A stretch of 64,000 nt of DNA from Chloroflexota bacterium (GCA_027622315.1 JAQBZW010000001.1:433-64432), one strand, 5' to 3'; positions 2,651 through 46,065 are shown, counted from the first letter of the stretch. Made by a program: numbers and translations. The notes: generated by a model not told the origin, from the letters alone.

Positions 2651-3058
2651 CTATGTCCGCACCGGCGCGTGCGCCTTCACGAACTCGATGATGTCGCCGG
2701 TGTTCGTCCCGGGGCCGAAGACGCCCTGGAACCCGATCGCCTTGATCTTCTCGATGTCCTCCTGCGGGATGATGCCGCCGCAAAACAGCAACACGTCATC
2801 GACCCCTCGTTGCTTGAGCTCGTCCACGACGCGCGGAAAGAGCTCGAGGTGCGCGCCCGAGAGGATGGACAGGCCGACGACCTGCGCGTCTTCCTGGAGG
2901 GCGGCTTCGGCGATCATGGCCGGCGTCTGGCGGATGCCGGTGTAGATGACCTCCATACCGGCATCGCGCAACGCGCGCGCCACCACCTTCGCGCCACGGT
3001 CGTGCCCGTCCAGGCCGGGCTTCGCGATCAGCACACGAATTCGCTGTTCGTTCGCCAA
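2651..3058 (-). CDS. methylmalonyl-CoA mutase B12-binding small subunit (C-terminal cobalamin-binding domain homolog)
   Basis: (L)[40 protein letters not shown]...[13 protein letters not shown] contains the DxHxxG cobalamin-binding motif. The start is TTG at 3056-3058, preceded by GGAGGAG (5 nt). Confidence 0.8.
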
Positions 3059-3173
3059 GATCTCCTCCGTGCTCCGCGGTGCCGTTCGTTCGGTTCCACC
3101 GCGCGGTATCCACGCGCTCACAGTCTGTGCTCCCGGCGGCACGCGCGCCACAGTGCCGCGTGCCGGCGCGAGG

Positions 3174-3992
3174 CTAGCGTTCGAATTGAATGAGCTGGAT
3201 CCCGAGCCCGAAGGCCTGCTCCGCCGAGACCGTGGACGTGACCGACCGGGGCAGCACCCCCGGCTGAGCATCCGGGAGCTCGATCCCGTGCCCCCGGTAG
3301 CGCGCAATCTCGGCCGCGATGTCCGGTACCTCGATCGCGACCATGGACGCAGCGCGCTCGCCCTGCTCAGCGATGCGCTGCGCCATCGGCGAATCGGGAC
3401 CGGTGGGAGCGAGCAACTCGATCGTGCACTGGCTGCACGGCATCTGGCCGATCACCATGCCGCGGCCCTCAGCCCGCACCTCGCCCTTCACCTCGAGCCC
3501 GACGATCCGCTTCCACGTCGCCTGTGCGGCGTGGTAGTCGGCAACCGTCACGGCGAGGTGATCGAAGCCCTTGCCGGTGCCCACGTGGGCACCGGCGGGC
3601 GGCTGTGCGAACTCGATGAGCACACCGTGCACGGACTTCGGGTGCACGAAGCCGATGCGCCCGGCCAGGCCGTCGCGCGACGTCTCATCGATGAGCTCCA
3701 CGCCGGCGGCCTTCAGGCGCGCGAGCTCGCCATCGACGTCGTCCGTGTTGAAGCAGATGTGGTGCAGGGTCTGACCACGGCTCTCGAGAAAGCGAGCGAC
3801 ACCGGTGTCATCGCGTGTCGGCTGCAGCAGCTCGATCTCGTTCTCGCCGAGTCCGAGCAGCACGCCGCGCACGCCCTGCTCTTCGATCACGCGATCCTCG
3901 GTCACAGGCAATCCCATGACGTCGCGAAAGAAGCCGAGCGCGGCATCGGCGTCGCGCACGACGACGCCGACGTGGTGGACGCGATCGATCAT
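3174..3992 (-). CDS. methylmalonyl-CoA epimerase (VOC/glyoxalase fold) fused to a second VOC domain
   Basis: The N-terminal domain, [27 protein letters not shown]...[39 protein letters not shown]...[16 protein letters not shown], is MCE-like. A second VOC-type domain follows. AAGGAG SD precedes the ATG. Confidence 0.7.
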
Positions 3993-4610: not shown

Positions 4611-6266
<1,656 letters not shown>

Positions 6267-6288: not shown

Positions 6289-6300
6289 GCACTCGAGTGC
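6289..6300. promoter_or_regulatory. 12-bp perfect palindrome GCACTCGAGTGC in the 5' leader of the mutase operon
   Basis: Read directly from the sequence, 23 nt upstream of the mutase ATG. Function unknown. Confidence 0.25.
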
Positions 6301-6439
6301 GACGCACCGGTATTGCTTGGACTCGCACGGGTGGTCGAGGGCCGGAGTGTAGGTACGCGAGATGAGGTCGATCAACACGACGAGTCCGGGAGCGCCCGGT
6401 CACGCATAGCAGTTGGCGGGCGCCACGGGTGCGGAGTCA

Positions 6440-6516
6440 TGGTGGGCGATGGAGGGTTCGAACCTCCGACCTTCCGGGTGTAAACCGGACGCTCTAGCCA
6501 ACTGAGCTAATCGCCC
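6440..6516 (-). tRNA. tRNA-Val (anticodon TAC), CCA encoded
   Basis: The reverse complement folds as GGGCGAT-TA-GCTC-AGTTGGCTA-GAGC-G-TCCGG-TTTACAC-CCGGA-AGGTC-GGAGG-TTCGAAC-CCTCC-ATCGCCC-A-CCA: a full cloverleaf, 77 nt. Confidence 0.85.
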
Positions 6517-6526
6517 GCGACAGGGC

Positions 6527-6546
6527 GCGGGCTCCCGGGAGCCCGC
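6527..6546. repeat. 20-bp perfect palindrome GCGGGCTCCCGGGAGCCCGC, with a partial direct repeat of CCCGGGAGCCCGCGA about 30 nt away
   Basis: Read from the sequence. It lies between the 5' side of tRNA-Val and the stop of the small membrane-protein gene. It could act as a terminator or operator. Confidence 0.4.
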
Positions 6547-6581
6547 GACGGGACGCCGGATCCCGGGAGCCCGCGATGGGG

Positions 6582-6803
6582 TCAAGCGCTACGTTCGTCG
6601 TCCCCTCGCTCGCCCGCGGGTCGTCGCCACGGCAGCGGGACGGTGATCCCGAGCACGAACCACAGGTACCCGAAGATGAGCACGACTTCAAAGCATTGAC
6701 GCGCCGGACCGCCCAGCCAGAGCTGGATCAGATCGCCGCCCGCCCACAGGTTAGTCACGAGCGCGACGAAGATCAGCACGTGCGTGAGAGGATTGAGGCG
6801 CAT
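6582..6803 (-). CDS. small two-TM membrane protein (hypothetical)
   Basis: MRLNPLTHVLIFVALVTNLWAGGDLIQLWLGGPARQCFEVVLIFGYLWFVLGITVPLPWRRP. The ATG is internal to track ORF 6582..7247, whose 5' part is Arg/Pro-rich junk. Confidence 0.4.
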   Translation of the reverse strand: MRLNPLTHVLIFVALVTNLWAGGDLIQLWLGGPARQCFEVVLIFGYLWFVLGITVPLPWRRPAGERGDDERSA

Positions 6804-6871
6804 GGCGTCAGCGTAACGCTTCGCCCGGCAACCGCGCGAAGCGCCAACCGACCCGGCGGAGAGATCGACTG

Positions 6872-7402
6872 ATGACTCAGCGTGACCCGTTTGATTCGCT
6901 CGCCCTGACGGAGCTGGAAGAGGCGTCCGGCGAGCTGCACCGTCGCATCGGCGCCGCGCTTCGCCGCATCGGCGAGGTGCAGGCCGAGCGAGACGACGGT
7001 GCGGGCGACAACCCACGTCGGCGCGTCGCGGCGCTTGCCGCGGCGATCGAGCTCGCCGGCAGCACCCTTGCGGCGGTGGCCGCCGGCGGGGGCGCACCAG
7101 ACGTGCGCAGCGACCGCCACCCCGCCGTGGTCGCCGCCGTGATGTACGCGACCCCGGCGATCCCGGCACTGCTGGCACGCCTGGATCAAGACCGTCGACT
7201 GCTCGCCTCGCTCGCGCGTTCGCTCGAGCTGCGCCTGGCCGAGGCACACGTCACCCCGTGGGGGCACGAAACGCTCCGTCAGTTGCTGAGCGAGATCGCC
7301 GTCGCCGAGCCCGCACGCTGCGCGCAGGCACTGGAGCGGCGCCTGGCCGTGCTCGAGGCGGAGGCCGCCGCTGCTCGCACCGCGGCCGCCCCGGAGCCCT
7401 GA
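6872..7402 (+). CDS. hypothetical protein (Ala/Arg-rich, predicted helical)
   Basis: GGAGAG SD lies 8 nt before the ATG, and third-position GC is high. No recognisable domain. Confidence 0.5.
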   Translation: MTQRDPFDSLALTELEEASGELHRRIGAALRRIGEVQAERDDGAGDNPRRRVAALAAAIELAGSTLAAVAAGGGAPDVRSDRHPAVVAAVMYATPAIPALLARLDQDRRLLASLARSLELRLAEAHVTPWGHETLRQLLSEIAVAEPARCAQALERRLAVLEAEAAAARTAAAPEP

Positions 7403-7504
7403 CACCACACCCTCGGTGTCCTGCCGTCCGCGTGACCGCGATATACGCCTGATCTCCGCCGTTATGTCGATTCAATTCCGGAGTTTCACCTCATCAAAAA
7501 ATGT

Positions 7505-7528
7505 AGTTATCCCCGCCTGTGGATAACT
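7505..7528. promoter_or_regulatory. palindromic operator AGTTATCC-N8-GGATAACT (contains a perfect DnaA box TTATCCACA) inside an AT-rich island
   Basis: tgtAGTTATCCccgcctgtGGATAACTtg. An A6 tract and about 100 bp of low-GC sequence (7441-7545) flank it, in a roughly 70% GC genome. Confidence 0.35.
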
Positions 7529-7605
7529 TGTTGAAAAGTGTGCGGACGGGTTGCGGACGCCGGGGTGTCAGGTGTGGAGGGGGTCGCGATCGCTCGAGCC
7601 GGCGC

Positions 7606-8154
7606 CTACCGATCGGGGTTGGGCACGACCTGATCCGTGGTCACCGCAAATGACGCGCCGTCCCACTGATACGTGACCTCATGCAGCTGCGACGGGCAGC
7701 ATTGCGCGTCTCCGGTCGCGTAGACGCCCTCGCGGATCACGATCAGCTCGCGGTTCACGAGCAGCCGGCCGTTGTACGAGAAGAAGCGCGTGAGCAGTGG
7801 CCGGCCCTCCACCAGGCGATAGACGCCGGCGCCAATCTCCCCGGCCGTCCCGCCGGAGTCGACGATCACGATCGCCTCCTCCGATCCGCCCGCGATCAGC
7901 TGGGCGAAGATCACGCTCTGGGCGCGCACCTCCCCGCCGCCCGCCTGCGCGATCAGCTCACCGGCGAGCGCGGGAGCGGAGAAGTCGGACTCGCGCAGTG
8001 TGGTCACGGGCGAACTCGCGGGCAACGCCGTCGCCGCCGGCGACGCGGTGGCCGTCAGCGTCACGTTGCTCGAACCGCCGCAGGCGACCGCGCTGATCGC
8101 GATCAGCGCCGTTCCGAGCGTGAGCGCTCCCCGGACCGATCGGCTGCGTTGCAC
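7606..8154 (-). CDS. secreted protein or lipoprotein (signal peptide, Cys after ...AISAVAC)
   Basis: GTG start. VQRSRSVRGALTLGTALIAISAVACGGSS reads as a signal peptide. No other domain is recognised. Confidence 0.5.
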   Translation of the reverse strand: MQRSRSVRGALTLGTALIAISAVACGGSSNVTLTATASPAATALPASSPVTTLRESDFSAPALAGELIAQAGGGEVRAQSVIFAQLIAGGSEEAIVIVDSGGTAGEIGAGVYRLVEGRPLLTRFFSYNGRLLVNRELIVIREGVYATGDAQCCPSQLHEVTYQWDGASFAVTTDQVVPNPDR

Positions 8155-8336
8155 GCGTACCCCATCTCTGCCCCGTGACCGTCATGTTCCGTGCGCGATC
8201 AGCCCGGGTCAACGCGACGCGCCCCCGCACCATGCGCGATGCGCAAGCGGCACGCACGCGCCGATGATCATCGCGAGCAGCCCCGCGACGGGCCACGGCC
8301 TGGCGCGTGCAACTTCGCTCATCGCAGGAGCACCAG

Positions 8337-9155
8337 ATGACGCCCGCGCCCACCGTCCTGCCCGTCCTGCCCGTCCTGCCCGCCGCGCAAGCGCGCGCGC
8401 TCACACTCGCCTCGCGCCCCGACGTCGGGATCCCGGAGCTCGCGGGAGTCGTCGAGAGTGACCCGGCGCTCACGATCGCGGTGCTCCGTGCCGCCAACAC
8501 GGCGAGCCAGGCGCCGGTGCAGCGCGTGCTGACGGCGAGCGACGCGATCGTGCGCATCGGGCTGAACGCCACTCGCCGTGTGGTCACCGCGACCGCGACG
8601 AACAGCGCGTTCGGTGACATCGCGCGCGCGGGCATCGACCTCGATGCGTTCTGGGATCACACGCTCGCGACCGCGCTGCTCGCGGACGCCTCCGCGTGGC
8701 CGAACGGGCCGCGCACAGAGGCCTTCACGACCGGACTGCTCCACGACATCGGTCGGCTGGCGCTCGCCAGCGCCGATCCCGAGCGCTACCGCTTCGTCGT
8801 CCGTCGGGTGCAGGGCGGCGCGTCGCCCGACGAGGCCGAGCGCGCGGTCTTCGGCGTCGACCACATCACGGTCGGGCGAGACGTGGCCGCGGCCTGTGGC
8901 CTGCCGCCCCAAATGGTCGACGCGATCGCACAGCACCACGTGGGCGACGGCTCGGCGCTCGCGTGGGTGACGTTCAACGGCCGCTCGCTCGCAGTCATGC
9001 TCGGCTTCGGCGACGGCGTCAGCGTGGCCACCCCGGCGGTCCCGGTCGAAGTCGGCCCCGGTGGCGCCGTCGTGCGCTCGCTGGGCGGGTCGGCGGGCAT
9101 CCGTATGAAGATCGCCTGGTACCGCGGCCTCTTCGTCGCACGCGCCGCCGCCTGA
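8337..9155 (+). CDS. HDOD domain-containing signalling protein
   Basis: LPAAQARALTLASRPDVGIPELAGVVESDPALTIAVLRAANTA... is HDOD-like. GGAG lies 8 nt before ATG 8337. Confidence 0.75.
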   Translation: MTPAPTVLPVLPVLPAAQARALTLASRPDVGIPELAGVVESDPALTIAVLRAANTASQAPVQRVLTASDAIVRIGLNATRRVVTATATNSAFGDIARAGIDLDAFWDHTLATALLADASAWPNGPRTEAFTTGLLHDIGRLALASADPERYRFVVRRVQGGASPDEAERAVFGVDHITVGRDVAAACGLPPQMVDAIAQHHVGDGSALAWVTFNGRSLAVMLGFGDGVSVATPAVPVEVGPGGAVVRSLGGSAGIRMKIAWYRGLFVARAAA

Positions 9156-9186: not shown

Positions 9187-11478
9187 TTGAAAGCGCCACG
9201 CGGTAGAATCCCTTCGAGAGCCACCACACTCGCGAGGGGACCCGCACTCATCATTTCGACCCGGTGTGCTTCCTGCGACGCCACCTTCGCCGGCGATGTG
9301 GCGTTCTGCCCAGAGTGCGGCGAGGTCGCCCAGGCGGCGCCGCCACATCCGGGCGACCTGCCGGCGCCGGCACCCGCGCCACGCCCGCTTCCACGCCCCG
9401 CGGCTACGCCGGCGACAGCGGGTGCGCCGGCACCCGCCCGCCTCCCCACCGAGCTCTACCGGTATAGACAGCGCCTGCGCGACACCTTCGGCTACCCCGA
9501 CTTCCGCGACGGGCAGGCCACGGTGCTCTCCGCGCTCGCCACCAGCGACGTGCTCGCCGTCATGCCCACCGGCAGCGGGAAGAGCCTCTGCTACGTGCTG
9601 CCCGCGCTCGAGGTGGGCCGCACGGTGGTCGTGTCGCCGCTGATCGCGCTCATGCAGGATCAGGTCGAAGGCCTGCAGGCGGCCGGCGTGGCGGCGACCT
9701 TCATCAATTCGAACGTCGGCCGCGACGAGCTGAATCGTCGCTACGCGGACTTCATCGCGGGACGCACCTCGCTGCTCTACGTCGCGCCCGAACGCTTCGC
9801 GAACGCCCGCTTCACAGAGGGCTTGCGGCGCGCCGGCGTGAACCTCTTCGCTGTGGACGAAGCGCACTGCATCTCGGAGTGGGGCCACAACTTCCGCCCT
9901 GACTACCTCCTGCTCGGCGCGATCCGCGCGCGGCTCGGCAATCCGCGCACGCTCGCGCTCACCGCCACCGCCAATCCGCGCGTGCGTCGCGACGTGCTCG
10001 CGCGGCTCGGCCTCAGCGGCCGCGCGCAGGAAGTCGTCACCACCGTGGACCGGCCGAACCTGCTGTACTCGGTGCACTCCATCGGCAGCCCGGCGGATCG
10101 CACGCGCTGGGTGATCGACTACGCACAGGCGCGTCCGGGCCAGGCCGGCATCGTGTACGCGCGCACGCGCCGTTCCGTCGACGAGCTCGCCAGCGCGTTG
10201 CAGGCAGCCGGTGTCCAGGCAGCCGCGTACCACGCGGGCCTCGGGCGCGAAGAACGCTCGACCGTGCAGCGGCGCTTCACGGTCGGCGACCTCCCGGTGA
10301 TCGTCGCGACCAACGCCTTCGGCATGGGCGTGGACAAGCCCGACGTCCGTTATGTCGTGCACTTCAACATGCCCGCCCGCCTCGAGTCCTACTACCAGGA
10401 GGCCGGCCGCGGGGGACGTGACGGCGACCCCGCAGAATGCACGCTGCTCTTCGCACCCTCCGATCGACGCGTGCAACAGCGCATGATCGAACAGTCGCAC
10501 CCGGACGCCGCGGCCGTGCGCGACACGTGGCGCCGCTGGGTGACGCTTGCCCGCAGCAGCGATGGGCGCCTGCCGAGCGGCCTCGCCGATGGGGACGTGG
10601 AGCGCTTCGCGATCACGGTCGCCGCCCTCCGCCACTCCGGCCTGATCGAGCCGGTCGCGCTGAGCCTCACGAGCCTCGACCCCGACGCGGCGATCGATCT
10701 GTCGAGCATCACCGAGCACCGGGCGTACGCCGAGGCGCGGCTACGCGAGATGTCGGAGTACGCCGAGACGGACCACTGCCGGCGCGCGCTCATCCTCCGC
10801 TACTTCGGCGAGACGCCGGAGGAGAGCTGCGAGCGTTGTGACATCTGCCTGGGTACCGCGACCACCGAGCGCGCGGACTACCCGTCGGATCTCTTCGAGG
10901 GACTGCTCGATCTGCGCGAACAGATCGCTCGCCAGAGCGGACGGGACCCGTCGCGCGTATTCGAACTGCGCACCGCACGCGAACTGGCCGAACAGCGGCC
11001 GCGCACCCGCGAGCAGCTGCTCGCCGTCTGGGGCATGGGTGAGCGGCGCGCGGACTGGTTCGGCCGGGAGCTGGTCGCCGCGATCGACGAGTGGAACGCG
11101 GCGCACCCCGACGCGCCGCCGCCGAGCGTCGCCCCGCCCGCGTCCGGGCGCCGCAGCTCAGGCGGGAGCGGCCGCGCCGCTCGCAGTGACAGGGATGCGC
11201 GCGACCCCGGCATCGAGGCCGTGCGCGACGATCCGTTGTTCGACGCTCTGCGGCGCTGGCGCTCGGGGCGCGCTCGCGAGGACGGCGTGCCGGCGTACGT
11301 GCTCTTCTCGGACCGCACCATGCGGGAGCTGGTCGCCGTGCGGCCCGGGTCGCGCGACGAACTGCTCGGGGTATGGGGACTCGGCGAGGCACGCGTGGAA
11401 CGCTTCGGGGAAGCGCTGCTCGGCGTAATCCGCGACCCCGAGACGGCGCCACCGGAACGCGGCGAGCCGGGGCGATGA
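9187..11478 (+). CDS. recQ: ATP-dependent DNA helicase RecQ with an N-terminal Zn-ribbon and two C-terminal HRDC domains
   Basis: CASCDATFAGDVAFCPEC is a zinc ribbon. DGQATVLSALATSDVLAVMPTGSGKSLCY and DEAHCISEWGHNFRPDY are helicase motifs I and II. CRRALILRYFGE...CERCDIC is the RQC Zn site. Two HRDC-like segments follow. The TTG start at 9187 is uncertain. Confidence 0.9.
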   Translation: MKAPRGRIPSRATTLARGPALIISTRCASCDATFAGDVAFCPECGEVAQAAPPHPGDLPAPAPAPRPLPRPAATPATAGAPAPARLPTELYRYRQRLRDTFGYPDFRDGQATVLSALATSDVLAVMPTGSGKSLCYVLPALEVGRTVVVSPLIALMQDQVEGLQAAGVAATFINSNVGRDELNRRYADFIAGRTSLLYVAPERFANARFTEGLRRAGVNLFAVDEAHCISEWGHNFRPDYLLLGAIRARLGNPRTLALTATANPRVRRDVLARLGLSGRAQEVVTTVDRPNLLYSVHSIGSPADRTRWVIDYAQARPGQAGIVYARTRRSVDELASALQAAGVQAAAYHAGLGREERSTVQRRFTVGDLPVIVATNAFGMGVDKPDVRYVVHFNMPARLESYYQEAGRGGRDGDPAECTLLFAPSDRRVQQRMIEQSHPDAAAVRDTWRRWVTLARSSDGRLPSGLADGDVERFAITVAALRHSGLIEPVALSLTSLDPDAAIDLSSITEHRAYAEARLREMSEYAETDHCRRALILRYFGETPEESCERCDICLGTATTERADYPSDLFEGLLDLREQIARQSGRDPSRVFELRTARELAEQRPRTREQLLAVWGMGERRADWFGRELVAAIDEWNAAHPDAPPPSVAPPASGRRSSGGSGRAARSDRDARDPGIEAVRDDPLFDALRRWRSGRAREDGVPAYVLFSDRTMRELVAVRPGSRDELLGVWGLGEARVERFGEALLGVIRDPETAPPERGEPGR

Positions 11479-30450: not shown

Positions 30451-32207
30451 GTGGTTGTGCATCGTGGAATTGTGATCGTCCACGGCGTGGGCGAAGCCGG
30501 CAAAGGCGGGTACCTCGATCTGTTCGTGGAACCGCTGGCGCGCTTCGTCGGCGACGCGATCGAAGATGCCAACGTGGCGATCGAAGTCAGCAACGAAGCG
30601 GACATCGGCCGCATGAGCTCCGCCACGTTGCGTCTGCGGGACGAGAACACGCGGGCGGTCGTGGAAGAGTGGCGCATCCAGGACGCCTGGTGGGCGCGGT
30701 CGTTCGCAGCGAGCGGCTCTCAGGTGGTGCTGTACTGGGGCATCATCGCCGGCATCACGTCGATGTGGATGACCTTCCGCAACGTCTTCGTCCGCAACGC
30801 GCTGCGCTTCCTCATGCCGCGCCGCTACGAGCAGCTCCCGCTCGCGCGTGCGGACCTGCGCGGGCGGCCGCTCAGCCCGAGCACGGCCCGTCGCCTCGGC
30901 GAGGCGGACGAGGGCGCATGGGTGGTCGCCGGCGCCGCGCGCATGAAGGCGCTACTCGATGCATTCGTGTGGATGCTGATCACCGCCGGTTACCTGGTCG
31001 TCGCGGTGACGGGTCTCCTGATCGTGATCCCCGTCTACCTGCTCCTGCTCACCCCGCTCGCGATGCTGGTTCCACAGGTGTCGCGGGTGCAGCGAGCGAT
31101 CGTGGGCACGCTCGTGCGTGGCGTCGGTGATCAGCAGGCGACGACCACGCGCCGGTTCGCGCTCGCCGCCGCCGCGAACGAGGTCTCGCGCGCGCTGGCG
31201 CCCATGCTCGACCCGAGAGCGCTGGCGGCCGAGCGCGACCGTGACCCGGCGTTCGCCGGATACCGCACCGTGACGGTGGTCGCCTACTCGGGTGGCACGA
31301 TCGTCTCCTACGACGCGCTGGCGACGCAGGTCCAGGACTGGATGGCGCAGCCCGTCCCGGAGGGGATCGAGCGGCCGACGCGCGTGAACTGGATCACGGC
31401 GGGAAGCGGCCTGAACCTCGCGTACCGCATGCGCCGACGCCGCTCACAGCGCGATAACGCGTTCTGGGGGCGTCGCATCGACGGCTACGTAAACTGGTTG
31501 AACATCTACGCGCGCTACGACCCGATTCCGCAGGGTCCGGCGCCCGGCGCGCTAGTGGAAGCGCTCGTCGGGCGAGACCCGTGGCTCGACGTTCCCCCCG
31601 ACACCGGGCAACAGCGGCCGCCGTACGTGTGCCTGCGAGTCGTGAACGACGACTTCCCGGCGACGGACCACTTCGGCTACTGGAGCAACGGGGACGAGGT
31701 GCTCTCACGGGTCGCGCTCGTCGTGATGTCCGACACGCTCGCCCACAGACAGATCGACCCGCAGGATGTCGCCTTCGGCACCAGTCCACTCACACGACTG
31801 GCGTCGGAGGTGGCACGGCGGACGGCCCGCGGCCGTCCGCACCGGAACGAAGTCCTGCGCCGGCAACTGCCGGTCTACCTCGGGATGCTCGGGTTCATCG
31901 CGCTGCTACCGCGGGCCGCACTCGCCGGTCGCTGGCTGCTCGGCAAGGACACGCTGTTCGGCGTGCCCGCGGTCAGCTTCCGCGGCCGCGTGCTGGACGA
32001 GTTGCTGCCGACGTCGCTCGGCGGCCTGAGCATCGAGGGCTACCGCGACTGGCTGGTGGGTGTGGCCGCGATCGCGTTCGCGGCGCTGGTCGCCGTCCAG
32101 CTCATCCAGCTGCTCGCGACCCTCGCCCGCTGGGTCCGCGACGGGGGATCGTTCTGGCTGGTGATCGTTCCGGTGCTCGGGACCGTGCTCACGATCGCGC
32201 TCGTCGC

Positions 32208-32232
<25 letters not shown>
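30451..32232 (+). CDS. membrane-anchored alpha/beta-hydrolase-like protein (HG oxyanion motif, GYSGG nucleophile elbow, at least 5 TM helices); hypothetical
   Basis: A GTG start lies after a G-run SD. IVIVHGVGEAGKG...VVAYSGGTIVSYDAL...NDDFPATDHFGYW, with hydrophobic helices in the middle and at the C-terminus. Confidence 0.5.
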
Positions 32233-34232
<2,000 letters not shown>

Positions 34233-34442
34233 GCAAGCCTCCAGCTGAGCGGACTGCTCGGCCGGCCCGTACGAGACCATAATCGACACCAGCACGTGTT
34301 GATAGTGCGTGGATAGATGAGGTTTGCATTGGTTTCTTCGCCGCACCGCACGGCCCCGAGCGGACCCACACCGTCGAGCCCCACCCGTGAGGACGCCTCA
34401 ACTCCACCCGGCGGTCGTCGCCCCCGGGCGGGACGCGGTGCT

Positions 34443-35312
34443 TCAGCGGAAGTCAGTGAGCGTGGGCTCGCCCTCGCCAAACGGGGGGCGGGCGCGGTAG
34501 AAGCGTTCTTCACCGAAGAAGCGCTCGGCGAGGTCTTCTGGCATGCGCGCGAACATGCTGCTCTCGCCGAACTGGCTGCGGTGCATCGCCGCCGCGCGGC
34601 GTTTCGCCGCGGCGTATGCCGCGCAGTCGATCACCACGCTCACGGGCGGGTCCGGGCGGGCCAGCGCCTCTTCAAAACGCTTGCGCATGTCTTCACCCAA
34701 GGGCTCCGGGGCGAGCCCGCGCCGTTCGAGTTCCAGTCGCACGTTCGCGAACTGCTTCATCGTGCGCGCGCCCCAGTAGAGCCGCTCAGGTGCCCATGGC
34801 GCGCCCGTCTCCGGGAAAGCCCCCGGATCGCCACAGGCATCGAAGGCCGCGACCGTGTGCATGTACGTCGCAATGTGATCGGGATGGCCGTAGCCGCCGT
34901 CGGGCTGCCACGTGAAGACGTCGTGCGGGCGCACCTCGCGCATGATCGCCAGCAGCGCCGGGACAGCCACTGCGGGCGGCTGCTGGTGAAAGCTGCGCGG
35001 GTCGTCGTTCTCGGTCGTGCCCGCCATGCCGCTATCGCGGAACGGCAGGAGACGGACCTCGGCGAGCCCGATCTGCGCCATCGCCGCGCGCAATTCCAGC
35101 TCGCGCGTGTAGCCGAGCGTCTCTGGCGTTGCGAGCGTGGCATCGCTGATCTCGCCCACCTCGCCGCGTGTCGTGCACACGAGCGTGACGGCGTTGCCTT
35201 CCGCCAGGAAGGCTGCAAGCGTGCCGGTGACCTGGCCTTCATCGTCCGGATGGCCGTAGACGGCCATGATCCGCCGGCCGCTCACGCCGACCACGGAGGG
35301 CAGTGCACTCAT
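34443..35312 (-). CDS. PIG-L/LmbE family deacetylase (MshB/Mca/BshB-like)
   Basis: IMAVYGHPDDEGQVTGTL...GGYGHPDHIA contains HPDDE plus the His motifs. AGGAG lies 5 nt before the ATG. Confidence 0.75.
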   Translation of the reverse strand: MSALPSVVGVSGRRIMAVYGHPDDEGQVTGTLAAFLAEGNAVTLVCTTRGEVGEISDATLATPETLGYTRELELRAAMAQIGLAEVRLLPFRDSGMAGTTENDDPRSFHQQPPAVAVPALLAIMREVRPHDVFTWQPDGGYGHPDHIATYMHTVAAFDACGDPGAFPETGAPWAPERLYWGARTMKQFANVRLELERRGLAPEPLGEDMRKRFEEALARPDPPVSVVIDCAAYAAAKRRAAAMHRSQFGESSMFARMPEDLAERFFGEERFYRARPPFGEGEPTLTDFR

Positions 35313-35536
35313 CTTCGCTCCTGCATCGTCATATCCGTCGGGACTGACCCGCTCGCTCGCTGGAGGAGGCCGACGAGGGAACTGAGACCCCACGGAGTCC
35401 CGAGGTTAGGGCACACCGGCCGAACGCACCGCCGGTACCCCCCGATCCCACCGGCATCCGACAACCGACCGGGCGGACGAAGACGGACCTTCGGGGTACA
35501 TTAGTGAACCCGCGCACAATGTCTGGGAAGGCTCGA

Positions 35537-44271: not shown

Positions 44272-45939
44272 CTAGATCGCGACGTAGACCGGCTGCTCGC
44301 CGAACACCCGGCGCCACATGTTGCAGATCTCGCCGACGGTGCAATACGCGTGCGCGGCCTCGACGAGGTACGGCATCACGTTCTCGCCGTCTTTCGTCGC
44401 CCGCTCGAGCTCGCTCATCGCACGGGCGGCGCGGGCGGCGTCTCGGGTCTTCCGCGTGCGGCGCAGCCGCTCGAGGTGTCGCGCCTCCCCGTCGGGGTCC
44501 ATCTCGAGGATGGGGATGTCGAGCGCCTCGTCGAGCACGTAGTCGTTCACGCCCACGATCACGCGTTCGTGCTGCTCGATCTCACGCTGATAGACCTGCG
44601 CGGCGTCCGCGATCTCGGACATGAAGAAGCCCTGCTCAATCGCCGGCAGCACGCCGCCGAGATCCTCGATGCGGTCGAAGTACTGGAGGCAGATGCGCTC
44701 CATCTCGTCGGTCATCGACTCGACGAAGAACGAGCCGCCGAGCGGATCCACCGTGTTCACGACACCGGACTCGTGCTCGATCACCTGCTGCGTGCGCATC
44801 GCCAGGCGCACGGCCTTCTCACTCGGTAGCGCGAGCGCCTCGTCCCACGAGTTCGTGTGCAGCGACTGCGTGCCGCCGAGCACACCGGCGAGCGCCTGGA
44901 TCGTCGTGCGGATCAGGTTGACCTCGGGCTGCTGGCTCGTCAGCGAGACGCCGGCGGTCTGCGTGTGGAAGCGCATCAGCCACGAGCGCGGGTTCTTCGC
45001 GCCGAAACGCTCGCGCATCTGGCGCGCCCAGATGCGCCGCGCCGCGCGGAACTTGCCGATCTCCTCGAAGAAGTCGTTGTGGCAGTTGAAGAAGAACGAC
45101 AGGCGTGGCGCGAACTCGTCGATGTCGAGGCCGCGTTCCAGCCCCCACTTCACGTACTCAATGCCGTTGGCGAGGGTGAACGCGAGCTCCTGCGCCGCCG
45201 TCGAGCCGGCCTCCCGGATGTGGTAGCCGGAGATCGAGATGCTGTTCCATTCCGGCATCTCGCGCGACGCGTACTCAATCGTGTCCACCACGAGGCGCAT
45301 GCTCTCCTCGGGCGGATAGATGTACTCGTTCTGGGCGATGTACTCCTTGAGGATGTCGTTCTGAAGCGTGCCACGCAGCGTGCTGCGGTCGACACCCTGC
45401 TTCTCCGCCGCAGCGATGAACATCGCCCAGATCACCGCCGCCGGTGAGTTGATCGTCATCGACGTCGAGATCTTGTCGAGCGGGATCTGGTCGAACAGGA
45501 TCTCCATGTCGGCGAGCGAGTCGATGGCCACGCCGCAGCGGCCGAACTCGCCGAAGGCCTCCGGCTCGTCGTGGTCGTAGCCCATGAGCGTGGGCATGTC
45601 GAAGGCGACCGACAGTCCGTCGTCGCCGTGCTCGATCAGGTAGCGATAGCGTGCGTTCGTCTCCTCGGCGGAGCCGAAACCGGCGAACATGCGGATCGTC
45701 CATGGCTTCGCCCGGTAGCCGGTGCGATGGACGCCGCGGGTGAAGGGGTAGGCGCCGGGCAGGGCAAGGTCGCGCTCGTAGTCGAGCTTCGCGACGTTCG
45801 TCGCGTCGTACACGCGATCGATTGGCATGCTCGATGTCGTGATGAACGGACCAGGCTGTTCGCGGCCTTCCGCGGCCACCTCGGCCTCGTAGCGCTCGCG
45901 CGCCTCGCGGGCGGCTTTCGCCGTCTTCTCGTCGAACAT
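44272..45939 (-). CDS. second coenzyme-B12 acyl-CoA mutase large subunit, isobutyryl-CoA-mutase-like (Gln replaces the substrate-carboxylate Arg)
   Basis: 555 aa. [33 protein letters not shown]...[21 protein letters not shown]...[11 protein letters not shown]. The other copy has [10 protein letters not shown] at this position. GAAGGAG SD is present. Confidence 0.85.
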
Positions 45940-45974
45940 GAAGCACTCCTTCTCCGAGCAGCCCCATCGTATGC

Positions 45975-46065
45975 GGGTGTTGTAGGGGCTTGTAGGGGCA
46001 GGCTGACCAGCCTGCCGAGCACCGCCGATGTTCGCCGGGCAGGCTGGTCAGCCTGCCCTACGAAC
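45975..46065. repeat. about 26-bp inverted repeats (GTAGGGGCAGGCTGACCAGCCTGCC ... GGGCAGGCTGGTCAGCCTGCCCTAC), each also a self-hairpin, preceded by a TGTAGGGGC x2 direct repeat
   Basis: Read from the sequence. It spans the SDR stop codon and the leader of the mutase-2 gene. Confidence 0.5.

What the first reader, a model, noticed from the sequence alone, without database searches (positions are those of the whole stretch)
7441..7560. AT-rich island with a perfect palindromic DnaA-box operator between convergent genes
In a roughly 70% GC genome, about 100 bp of low-GC DNA (tcaattccggagtttcacctcatcaaaaaatgtagttatcc...) contains AGTTATCC-N8-GGATAACT. One arm is an exact DnaA box (TTATCCACA on the minus strand) and the other a 2-mismatch box. 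It lies downstream of both flanking genes, where promoters are not expected. Possibilities are a DnaA-titration or DARS/datA-like site, the promoter or terminator of an unannotated small RNA, or a remnant of horizontally acquired DNA.
Basis: seen in the sequence. Interest (0 to 1): 0.55.

Follow-up and report, generated by a model that had tools for sequence, protein, structure and literature searches.

The report
Conserved DARS-like DnaA-box cluster
The AT-rich palindrome is the visible part of a roughly 85-bp non-coding array of DnaA-box-like sites, conserved at the same spot in ten related uncultured Chloroflexota genomes; its layout copies the core of the E. coli DARS sites that recharge the replication initiator DnaA, so it is probably a DnaA-binding control site outside the origin, not an operator or a simple terminator.

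Summary
Window 7426-7561 is the only stretch of the 64 kb below 50% GC. AGTTATCC-N8-GGATAACT (7505-7528) is unique, holds an exact TTATCCACA, and lies between two real convergent genes.

Ten orthologous loci from Dehalococcoidia-like metagenomes change the picture. The AT-rich spacer, the perfect palindrome and the T-run are specific to this strain. What is conserved is 7491-7575, which is better conserved than the flanking coding DNA.

Read on the minus strand, the conserved block is a phased array (11-12 bp): GCGTCCGCA, CCGTCCGCA, TTTTCAACA-ag-TTATCCACA-gg, then an inverted TTATCCCCG. The middle part is a "double DnaA box", the unit E. coli DnaA binds in vivo. Of ten E. coli DnaA-bound double boxes I read, only the three DARS ones are followed by an inverted box. 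The gap there is 5 bp; here it is 2 bp. One relative (L030) has no hairpin but carries TTATCCACT-ggc-TTGTCCACA in direct orientation, so the boxes are conserved rather than the stem.

oriC is unlikely: no dnaA or dnaN gene, no skew switch, no run of DnaA-trios next to the boxes, no conserved unwinding element. A terminator or a known RNA family is not supported as the conserved function.

Best reading (about 0.5): a DnaA assembly site outside the origin, DARS-like in layout. No biochemical function has been tested.

The parts
7491..7575 (-). Conserved non-coding core, the whole box array. The natural reading direction is the minus strand, which is the sense of the lipoprotein gene.
   Evidence: Mean identity to the window across 8 orthologues is 0.68-0.93 per 15-nt bin, peaking at 0.93 for 7521-7535. 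That is at or above the neighbouring coding DNA (0.5-0.87). The rest of the intergenic region is 0.19-0.46. Alignments.
7518..7526 (-). Box B (counterpart of DARS box II): TTATCCACA, an exact DnaA-box consensus.
   Evidence: TTATC and the A at position 7 are invariant in all 10 orthologues. Position 8 is C in 7 of 10 and position 9 is A in 4 of 10.
7529..7537 (-). Box A (counterpart of DARS box III): TTTTCAACA, a weaker box in the same orientation, 2 bp upstream of box B. Together they form a 'double DnaA box'.
   Evidence: It is the only double box in the window; 0 of 150 simulated 64-kb sequences gave one under strict criteria. TCAACA is invariant in 8 of 10 orthologues. The grammar matches E. 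coli sites bound in ChIP-seq.
7507..7515 (+). Box C (counterpart of DARS box I): TTATCCCCG, in inverted orientation, 2 bp from box B with the ACA ends facing each other.
   Evidence: It reads TTRTCCC(C/A)G in 8 orthologues, TTATCACCA in L013, and is absent in L030. E. coli DARS2 box I is TTATCCCAG.
7541..7549 (-). Phased repeat E: CCGTCCGCA, a candidate low-affinity box with 3 mismatches to TTGTCCACA.
   Evidence: Direct repeat D3. Start-to-start spacing is 11-12 bp. GTC.GCA is invariant in the 5-genome alignment; in the 10-genome table, L029, L017 and L030 depart from it.
7552..7560 (-). Phased repeat D: GCGTCCGCA.
   Evidence: CGTCCGCAA is invariant in the 5-genome alignment; in the 10-genome table, L031, L015, L029, L017 and L030 depart from it.
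7566..7571 (-). Conserved CTGACA motif upstream of the repeats. Its role is unknown.
   Evidence: Present in 8 of 10 orthologues at the same offset; L013 reads CTTACA there and L030 has a CTGACA about 30 nt further upstream.
7491..7499 (+). Outer inverted weak box / outer stem: TCATCAAAA here, TCATCAACA in L008.
   Evidence: It pairs with TGTTGA (7529-7534) as an outer helix that is 83% paired.
7505..7528 (.). Perfect palindrome AGTTATCC-N8-GGATAACT, formed by the inner parts of boxes B and C plus one flanking base on each side.
   Evidence: This exact palindrome occurs only in the window and L029. Six relatives have GGACAAC, which gives an A.C mismatch on the minus strand and a G.U pair on the plus strand.
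7496..7501 (-). T6 run after the hairpin on the minus strand. Together they look like a weak intrinsic terminator for the lipoprotein gene, in this strain only.
   Evidence: 8-bp stem, 3 G-C pairs. The T-run is absent from 7 of 9 relatives.
7441..7490 (.). AT-rich spacer. It is not conserved beyond the closest relatives.
   Evidence: Conservation 0.21-0.46. It is shared with L009 and partly with L012.
7606..8154 (-). Flanking gene: a 182-aa lipoprotein-like protein, with a weak LppP/LprE match below the Pfam cut-off.
   Evidence: The array lies 60-89 nt beyond its stop codon in 9 of 10 genomes and 146 nt beyond it in L017.
6872..7402 (+). Flanking gene: a conserved 176-aa protein of unknown function, convergent with the lipoprotein gene.
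   Evidence: No match in Pfam, NCBIfam or PDB.

Best explanation
The palindrome is part of a single-copy, lineage-conserved cluster of DnaA-binding sites outside the replication origin. On the minus strand, a consensus box (TTATCCACA) is preceded by a weaker box 2 bp away in the same orientation, and by two more phased GTCCGCA repeats. It is followed 2 bp later by an inverted box.

Inferred mechanism: DnaA binds the consensus box. It recruits further DnaA head-to-tail onto the phased weak boxes and one oppositely oriented DnaA onto the inverted box, as at the E. coli DARS core (III-II-I). The complex changes the availability or the nucleotide state of DnaA (ADP release as in DARS, or simple titration) and so tunes the timing of initiation.

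Shown: the sequence layout, its conservation, and its match to the grammar of E. coli DnaA-bound and DARS sites. Inferred: DnaA binding and any effect on DnaA. In this strain the perfect stem plus T6 may also act as a weak terminator for the lipoprotein gene.
For: (1) The element is at the same position in 10 genomes and is better conserved than the flanking genes.
(2) TTTTCAACA-ag-TTATCCACA-g fits the 'double DnaA box' (weak box, 2-3 bp, consensus box) that E. coli DnaA binds in vivo, for example nrdD TTAAGAACAggTTATCCACAg (PMC11317965). It is the only such site in the window and in each relative's locus.
(3) E. coli DARS1 reads TAATACACA-tgg-TTATCCACA-ggaat-AGTGGATAA. DARS2 reads CTTACACCA-tg-TTATCCACA-gaaag-CTGGGATAA. 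The window reads TTTTCAACA-ag-TTATCCACA-gg-CGGGGATAA.
(4) Of 10 E. coli DnaA-bound double boxes read here, only the 3 DARS ones are followed by an inverted box with at most 3 mismatches within 8 bp. Opposite orientation of boxes I and II is the defining feature of DARS (PMC6868365).
(5) L030 lacks the hairpin but has two near-perfect direct boxes 3 bp apart, TTATCCACT-ggc-TTGTCCACA.
(6) Bases in the would-be hairpin loop are conserved: the A at position 7 of box B is invariant and the matching C of box C is nearly so.
(7) The repeats are phased at 11-12 bp.
(8) There is no promoter-like site, no conserved ORF and no Rfam family.
Against: There is no binding data or any other experiment. The DnaA-box preference of this lineage is unknown; Ori-Finder proposed TTATCGAAA for Dehalococcoides. 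Positions 8-9 of box B vary in 3-6 of 10 genomes, although E. coli DnaA depends on them. The gap between the opposed boxes is 2 bp, not the 5 bp of all three E. coli DARS triads, so the geometry differs. L030 has no inverted box, so a function that strictly needs opposed boxes would be lost there. The GTCCGCA repeats have 3 mismatches to any known box and could belong to another protein. The two arms co-vary symmetrically, which also fits a hairpin.
Confidence: 0.5

Rival explanations
1. A structured nucleic-acid hairpin is the conserved element. It would be either an RNA made from the plus strand or single-stranded DNA: an 8-bp inner stem, an 8-nt loop, a 5-nt asymmetric internal loop and a 5-6-bp outer stem. 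It could act as a processing or stability element, a terminator, or a protein-recognised hairpin.
For: On the plus strand the inner stem is 97% paired in 9 genomes. Two pairs changed on both sides (A-U to U-A or G-C; C-G to A-U). Covariation exceeded all 500 shuffles and all slid controls. RNAalifold recovers the hairpin on the plus strand only. In this strain the minus-strand hairpin plus T6 scores as terminator-like.
Against: The stem is weak: the 61-66-nt segments that contain it fold at only about -8 to -16 kcal/mol, with z-scores from +0.35 to -2.4. No U-tract follows it on the plus strand, and the minus-strand T-run is missing in 7 of 9 relatives. The minus-strand stem carries A.C mismatches in 6 of 9. 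No promoter-like site was found, and Rfam gave only chance-level matches far below each family's gathering score. In L009 there is 1.2 kb between the element and the upstream plus-strand gene, so it is not that gene's 3' UTR. L030 has no hairpin. Loop bases and about 40 nt of unstructured flank are as conserved as the stem.
Confidence: 0.2
2. The array is the binding site of a sequence-specific DNA-binding protein other than DnaA, for example a regulator that recognises GTTATCC half-sites and/or the phased CGTCCGCA direct repeats. The likeness to DnaA boxes would then be coincidental.
For: The conserved core is GTTRTCC/GGATAAC rather than the full 9-mer. The CACA end that E. coli DnaA needs is only partly conserved. 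The CGTCCGCA repeats at 11-bp spacing look like response-regulator-type direct repeats.
Against: There is no promoter to regulate, because the site is downstream of both genes. The outer half-sites are offset by 5 nt, which does not suit a symmetric dimer. In L030 the site is rebuilt as two direct consensus DnaA boxes. The layout matches DARS down to box I, TTATCCC(A/C)G. No DNA-binding gene is linked to the site.
Confidence: 0.15
3. The site is the chromosomal replication origin (oriC) of this lineage: a DnaA-box array next to an AT-rich unwinding element.
For: Five or six phased box-like 9-mers lie beside the most AT-rich 80 nt of the window. The ten genes to the left are almost all on the minus strand and the four genes from 8.3 to 13.3 kb are on the plus strand.
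Against: None of the ORFs scanned against Pfam across the 64 kb (about 40) is a dnaA, dnaN, gyrB or parB-type gene. GC skew does not change sign at 7.5 kb: about 0 to the left and -0.05 to the right. Genes from 13 to 30 kb are all on the minus strand. By my own reading of the sequences against the published BUS rules, the nearest run of three NAN trios starts 17 nt from the consensus box, beyond the 16-nt limit, and none adjoins the boxes. The AT-rich tract is not conserved and is GC-rich in L017 and L013.
Confidence: 0.05
4. The island is a chance AT-rich patch or a remnant of horizontally acquired DNA with no function.
For: The AT-rich spacer 7441-7490 is not conserved. In L009 a 1.2-kb segment carrying a broken gene sits beside the element, so the intergenic region does tolerate insertions.
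Against: The core is conserved in ten genomes above the level of coding DNA. The layout did not arise in simulations.
Confidence: 0.02

Closest known systems
E. coli DARS1/DARS2 core (DnaA-reactivating sequences; PMC6868365, PMC10380432)
   Same: Non-coding and intergenic. Three 9-mer boxes in the order weak box, consensus TTATCCACA, inverted box, with the ACA ends facing each other. The weak and consensus boxes are 2-3 bp apart. The inverted box (TTATCCCCG or TTGTCCCAG) is close to DARS2 box I (TTATCCCAG) and is followed by CT as in both DARS sites. In E. coli this triad layout separated the DARS sites from the seven other DnaA-bound sites I examined.
   Different: The gap between the opposed boxes is 2 bp, not 5 bp. 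The phylum is different (Chloroflexota); DARS-like sequences are reported only from Proteobacteria. The neighbouring genes are different. No IHF or Fis sites were identified. Two extra phased GTCCGCA repeats and a CTGACA motif are present. One relative (L030) has direct boxes only. ADP-release activity is untested.
'Double DnaA box', the in-vivo binding unit of E. coli DnaA (PMC11317965)
   Same: An upstream weaker box ending in ACA, a 2-bp gap (3 bp in L030), then a consensus box followed by G.
   Different: Most E. coli examples lie upstream of regulated genes. This one is downstream of both neighbours.
Bacillus subtilis DnaA-box clusters outside oriC (PMC3245932) and E. coli datA
   Same: Intergenic clusters of DnaA boxes away from oriC that bind DnaA and restrain or tune initiation.
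   Different: From my own knowledge, those clusters hold more strong boxes spread over a longer stretch, and datA needs an IHF site. Here there are only one or two strong boxes within about 70 bp. No inverted-box requirement is described for them.
oriC basal unwinding system: tandem DnaA boxes, DnaA-trios and an AT-rich element (PMC8287927, PMC6669920)
   Same: Tandem boxes 2 bp apart, then a G-rich run (GGCGGGG), then AT-rich DNA in this strain.
   Different: There is no adjacent run of three or more NAN trios. The AT-rich tract is not conserved. There is no origin-type genomic context.
Intrinsic (Rho-independent) terminator between convergent genes
   Same: In this strain, a hairpin followed by T6 on the minus strand, 78 nt after the lipoprotein stop codon.
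   Different: The stem is AT-rich and weak. The T-run and perfect pairing are not conserved, whereas the primary sequence, including the loop, is conserved.

Membership tests
DARS (DnaA-reactivating sequence) core | A central DnaA box (II) that matches the 9-mer consensus | tested here: met
   TTATCCACA is exact in the window, L012, L015 and L029. The other six have 1-2 mismatches.
DARS (DnaA-reactivating sequence) core | A second box (III) in the same orientation, 2-3 bp from box II | tested here: met
   TTTTCAACA with a 2-bp gap in 9 of 10 genomes. L030 has a 3-bp gap.
DARS (DnaA-reactivating sequence) core | A box (I) oriented opposite to box II, next to it | tested here: met
   An inverted TTRTCC(C)(C/A)N is present in 9 of 10 genomes and absent in L030. 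It was specific to DARS among the 10 E. coli sites read.
DARS (DnaA-reactivating sequence) core | A 5-bp spacer between boxes I and II, as in DARS1 and DARS2 | tested here: not met
   The gap is 2 bp in all 9 genomes that have the inverted box, against 5 bp in the three E. coli triads. The total span of 20 bp is still within the 19-26 bp the authors' head-to-head dimer model allows.
DARS (DnaA-reactivating sequence) core | Promotes ADP release from ADP-DnaA | not testable with these tools
   This needs purified DnaA and a nucleotide-release assay.
DARS (DnaA-reactivating sequence) core | Common descent or shared synteny with proteobacterial DARS (the uvrB or mutH neighbourhood) | tested here: not met
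   The neighbours here are a lipoprotein gene and an unknown 176-aa gene in a Dehalococcoidia-like genome. E. coli DARS1 lies between bioD and uvrB. The DARS2 triads map to about 2,969,170-2,969,480, between rppH/ygdT and mutH.
Double DnaA box | Two boxes in the same orientation 2 or 3 bp apart, one of them near consensus | tested here: met
oriC / basal unwinding system | At least three DnaA-trios (3'-NAN-5') within 16 bp of a DnaA box | tested here: not met
   By my reading of the sequences under the rules quoted, the only conserved run of three (TTG TTN ATG on the top strand) starts 17 nt from box B and is separated from it by the inverted box.
oriC / basal unwinding system | A conserved AT-rich unwinding element, a GC-skew switch, and dnaA or dnaN nearby | tested here: not met
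Intrinsic terminator | A stable G+C-rich stem followed by a U-tract, kept across relatives | tested here: not met
   Terminator-like in the window only. The 61-66-nt segments around the hairpin fold at only about -8 to -16 kcal/mol, no better than shuffles in L009 and L017. The T-run is lost in 7 of 9 relatives and the minus-strand stem is mismatched in 6 of 9.
Any Rfam RNA family | A covariance-model match at the gathering score | tested here: not met
   Only two tRNAs in the window. At E<=10 the region gives only chance matches.
datA / B. subtilis DBC-type titration cluster | Several (four or more) strong DnaA boxes, and for datA an IHF site | tested here: inconclusive
   There are one or two strong boxes plus three or four weak phased ones. 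No IHF site was identified, and IHF is mainly proteobacterial.

The most novel reading that the evidence does not exclude
This is a working DARS-type element in Chloroflexota. An opposed pair of DnaA boxes, with a tighter 2-bp spacing, would drive nucleotide exchange on DnaA. Recycling of the initiator by a chromosomal DNA site would then not be a proteobacterial speciality but an old, widespread and so far overlooked layer of replication control, found here in an uncultured lineage.
Probability: 0.2. Interest if true: 0.75.

Novelty: new variant of a known kind. Interest (0 to 1): 0.58.

Why it matters
DNA sites outside the origin that control DnaA (datA, DARS1/2, the B. subtilis clusters) are known from a few model organisms. 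According to the review read here, DARS-like sequences are reported only from Proteobacteria.

A short triad that is strongly conserved, has the DARS layout and lies in uncultured high-GC Dehalococcoidia gives a concrete 85-bp fragment to test for DnaA binding and ADP release. [quoted passage not shown]

There is a practical point too. Comparative data were needed to find the real unit.

Tried and rejected
- Promoter. The sigma-70 scan found none in 6300-8400. Hand inspection of -35/-10, extended -10 and ECF-type spacings on both strands gave nothing that is conserved.
- Small ORFs. Nine ORFs of at least 20 aa overlap the region, but none lies in conserved sequence. The conserved ATG after the array is followed by a stop after 2 codons in the window.
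- Known RNA families. None matched.
- Repeat or mobile element. The first metagenome scan, with a 24-base pattern, found nothing. The second, with about 19 specified bases, found one true relative (L020) and 8 hits in low-GC contigs that are chance matches. The element is therefore single-copy and confined to one lineage.
- Flanking inverted repeats (7398-7406 with 7564-7572 and others). These suggested MITE-like ends, but whole-region folds are not better than shuffles (z -1.5 and -1.7) and the left arm is not conserved.
- dif/Xer sites, parS, LexA, Fur, CRP/NtcA-type boxes and Ter sites. I compared these consensus sequences from memory only. None fits, and none was tested with a tool.
- More relatives. 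The single genome-collection scan gave one locus.
- More distant relatives. L014 and L016 (52-56% lipoprotein identity) have an extra small membrane-protein gene at this position and no double box anywhere in the locus.

Full report
**1.

The window is 69.4% GC. With an 80-nt sliding window, GC drops below 50% at only one place in the 64 kb: 7426-7561, with a minimum of 39% at 7462-7541. AGTTATCC-N8-GGATAACT lies at 7505-7528. It is unique even with two mismatches allowed, and none of 100 shuffles produced one. TTATCCACA is exact on the minus strand at 7518-7526. It is the only match in the window to the relaxed consensus TTWTNCACA. The other arm reads TTATCCCCG.

The neighbouring genes are convergent and real. 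The ORF 6872-7402(+) has a coding-type GC pattern and is 72-73% identical to its orthologues. The ORF 7606-8154(-) is a lipoprotein-like protein with 42 homologues. Single boxes with up to one mismatch are not enriched in the window: 3 found against 1.7 expected. What matters is therefore the arrangement and its conservation.

**2. Source organism and relatives**

Exact-protein look-ups place the locus in metagenome assemblies. The one related reference genome is a Dehalococcoidia MAG. Using lipoprotein homologues and contig look-ups, I collected ten orthologous intergenic regions. Lipoprotein identity to the window ranges from 58% to 91%. In every case the region lies between the lipoprotein gene and the convergent gene of about 176 aa.

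**3. What is conserved**

| Region | Mean identity to the window |
|---|---|
| 7491-7575 (core) | 0.61-0.93, peak 0.93 at 7521-7535 |
| Lipoprotein gene 3' end | 0.68-0.87 |
| 176-aa gene 3' end | 0.5-0.7 |
| Rest of the intergenic region | 0.19-0.46 |
| AT-rich spacer 7441-7490 | 0.21-0.46 |

- The perfect palindrome occurs only in the window and L029. Six relatives have GGACAAC, L013 has a different perfect palindrome, and L030 has no inverted arm.
- The T-run that makes the minus-strand hairpin look like a terminator is missing in 7 of 9 relatives.
- In the closest relative (L009, 91%), 1.2 kb carrying a frameshifted Glycolipid_bind gene separates the core from the 176-aa gene. The core stays about 80 nt from the lipoprotein stop codon.

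**4. Anatomy of the core (minus strand)**

CTGACA-N5-[GCGTCCGCA]-ac-[CCGTCCGCA]-cac-[TTTTCAACA]-ag-[TTATCCACA]-gg-[CGGGGATAA]-ctacat-TTTTGATGA.

- The four bracketed 9-mers on the left point the same way, with start-to-start spacing of 11, 12 and 11 bp.
- The fifth is an inverted TTATCCCCG.
- The last segment is an inverted weak TCATCAAAA (TCATCAACA in L008).
- In box B, TTATC and the A at position 7 are invariant in all ten genomes. Box A keeps TCAACA in eight.
- L013 has TTATCA in boxes A, B and C alike.
- L030 differs most. It has no inverted arm and no hairpin, but it has TTATCCACT-ggc-TTGTCCACA as direct boxes, with ATGACCACG 12 bp upstream.
- This double box is the only one in the window: 0 of 150 simulated sequences gave one under strict criteria, and 8% under loose criteria. 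It is also the only one in each relative's locus.

**5. Comparison with known DnaA sites**

ChIP-seq in E. coli showed that DnaA binds pairs of boxes 2-3 bp apart, a weaker upstream box followed by a consensus box. Examples are datA TTGTAAACAgagTTATCCACAg and nrdD TTAAGAACAggTTATCCACAg (PMC11317965). TTTTCAACAagTTATCCACAg fits this exactly.

The DARS cores are defined by three boxes: II matches the consensus, III points the same way, and I points the opposite way (PMC6868365). I read both cores from the MG1655 genome.

| Site | Box III | gap | Box II | gap | Box I (inverted) | Source |
|---|---|---|---|---|---|---|
| DARS1 | TAATACACA | tgg | TTATCCACA | ggaat | AGTGGATAA | |
| DARS2 | CTTACACCA | tg | TTATCCACA | gaaag | CTGGGATAA | |
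| Window | TTTTCAACA | ag | TTATCCACA | gg | CGGGGATAA | |
| L008, L017 (box I only) | | | | | CTGGGACAA | |

I then examined ten E. coli DnaA-bound double boxes. Only the three DARS triads are followed within 8 bp by an inverted box with at most 3 mismatches, always at a 5-bp gap. datA, polA, purH, nrdD, oriC, mioC and nrdA have none. The triad layout is therefore DARS-like. The 2-bp gap is the clear difference. The total span of 20 bp still falls within the 19-26 bp that the published head-to-head dimer model allows.

**6. Is it a hairpin?**

On the plus strand the 8-bp inner stem is 97% paired. It includes eight G.U pairs, and two pairs changed on both sides. Covariation beats the shuffled and slid controls. 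On the minus strand pairing falls to 87.5%, and RNAalifold does not recover the stem.

This is genuine evidence for a symmetry constraint, but it does not discriminate between the readings. The A/G change in the left arm is TTATCC versus TTGTCC. From my own knowledge, both forms are accepted DnaA-box variants.

Points against an RNA:
- The stem is weak.
- There is no promoter-like site and no plus-strand U-tract.
- The L009 insertion uncouples the element from the upstream plus-strand gene.
- L030 has no stem.
- Loop bases and 40 nt of unstructured flank are equally conserved.

**7. Is it oriC?**

- About 40 ORFs across the window were scanned against Pfam. All that matched are metabolic, transport or housekeeping genes, and none is dnaA, dnaN, gyrB or parB.
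- GC skew is about 0 to the left and -0.05 to the right of the site, with no sign change.
- Genes from 13 to 30 kb are all on the minus strand.
- I applied the published rules for the basal unwinding system by reading the sequences. There is no adjacent run of three or more trios; the nearest starts 17 nt away, beyond the inverted box.
- The AT-rich tract is not conserved.

oriC is unlikely.

**8. Verdict**

The most likely reading, at about 0.5, is a conserved DnaA assembly site outside the origin, with a DARS-core-like layout plus extra phased weak sites. Whether it releases ADP from DnaA, titrates DnaA or does something else cannot be decided from sequence. L030, with direct boxes only, argues that generic DnaA binding is the conserved property.

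Caveats:
- The DnaA-box preference of this lineage is unknown. Ori-Finder proposed TTATCGAAA for Dehalococcoides.
- Positions 8-9 of box B drift.
- The GTCCGCA repeats may belong to another protein.

'Operator', 'perfect palindrome' and 'horizontal remnant' are not supported.

Noticed in passing
L009:2470-3700 (also L010): In the closest relative, 1.2 kb of extra DNA lies between the box array and the 177-aa gene. It carries a Glycolipid_bind (PF06475) gene split over two frames (2851-3126 and 2987-3463). This is either a pseudogene or an assembly frameshift.
   Followed up: partly
window 4611-6266(-) and 44272-46047(-): There are two full-length methylmalonyl-CoA mutase paralogues in one 64-kb window. 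The first sits in a cluster with B12-binding, MeaB and glyoxalase genes. The second sits among enoyl-CoA hydratase, thiolase and CoA-transferase genes.
   Followed up: no
window 6582-6806(-): A small membrane protein of 73-74 aa is conserved next to the 176-aa gene in all relatives and lies beside tRNA-Val (6440-6516, minus strand). It has no Pfam or NCBIfam family. Mechanical ORF listing hides it inside a longer spurious ORF (6582-7247).
   Followed up: partly
window 7398-7406 and 7564-7572: A perfect 9-nt inverted repeat, CCTGACACC / GGTGTCAGG, brackets the island. The right arm contains the conserved CTGACA motif. The left arm overlaps the stop codon of the 176-aa gene and is not conserved in relatives, so it is probably chance.
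   Followed up: partly
L014:3540-3851 and L016:2203-2442: In the more distant relatives (52-56% lipoprotein identity), a small membrane-protein gene occupies the place of the box array. No double DnaA box occurs anywhere in those loci, so the array seems confined to one sub-clade.
   Followed up: partly
L030:800-870: In L030 the AT-rich DNA lies on the other side of the boxes, directly after the lipoprotein stop codon. It contains a small palindrome, CGTTA-N8-TAACG.
   Followed up: no
L033 (E. coli NC_000913.3, about 2,969,170): The second DARS2 double box listed by the ChIP-seq paper (TTCTTCACA-act-CTATCCACA) is also followed, after 5 bp, by an inverted box (TTATTCACC). DARS2 therefore carries two triads of the same layout.
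   Followed up: partly
window 32200-35350: No ORF in this 3-kb stretch passed my filter for high GC3 and moderate GC2, although long ORFs exist on both strands (32208-34346 minus, 34317-35504 plus). It was not annotated.
   Followed up: no
window 8307-9155(+) and 9187-11478(+): An HDOD-domain protein and a RecQ helicase lie directly beyond the lipoprotein gene, and this arrangement is kept in the relatives. I saw no evident link to the box array.
   Followed up: no
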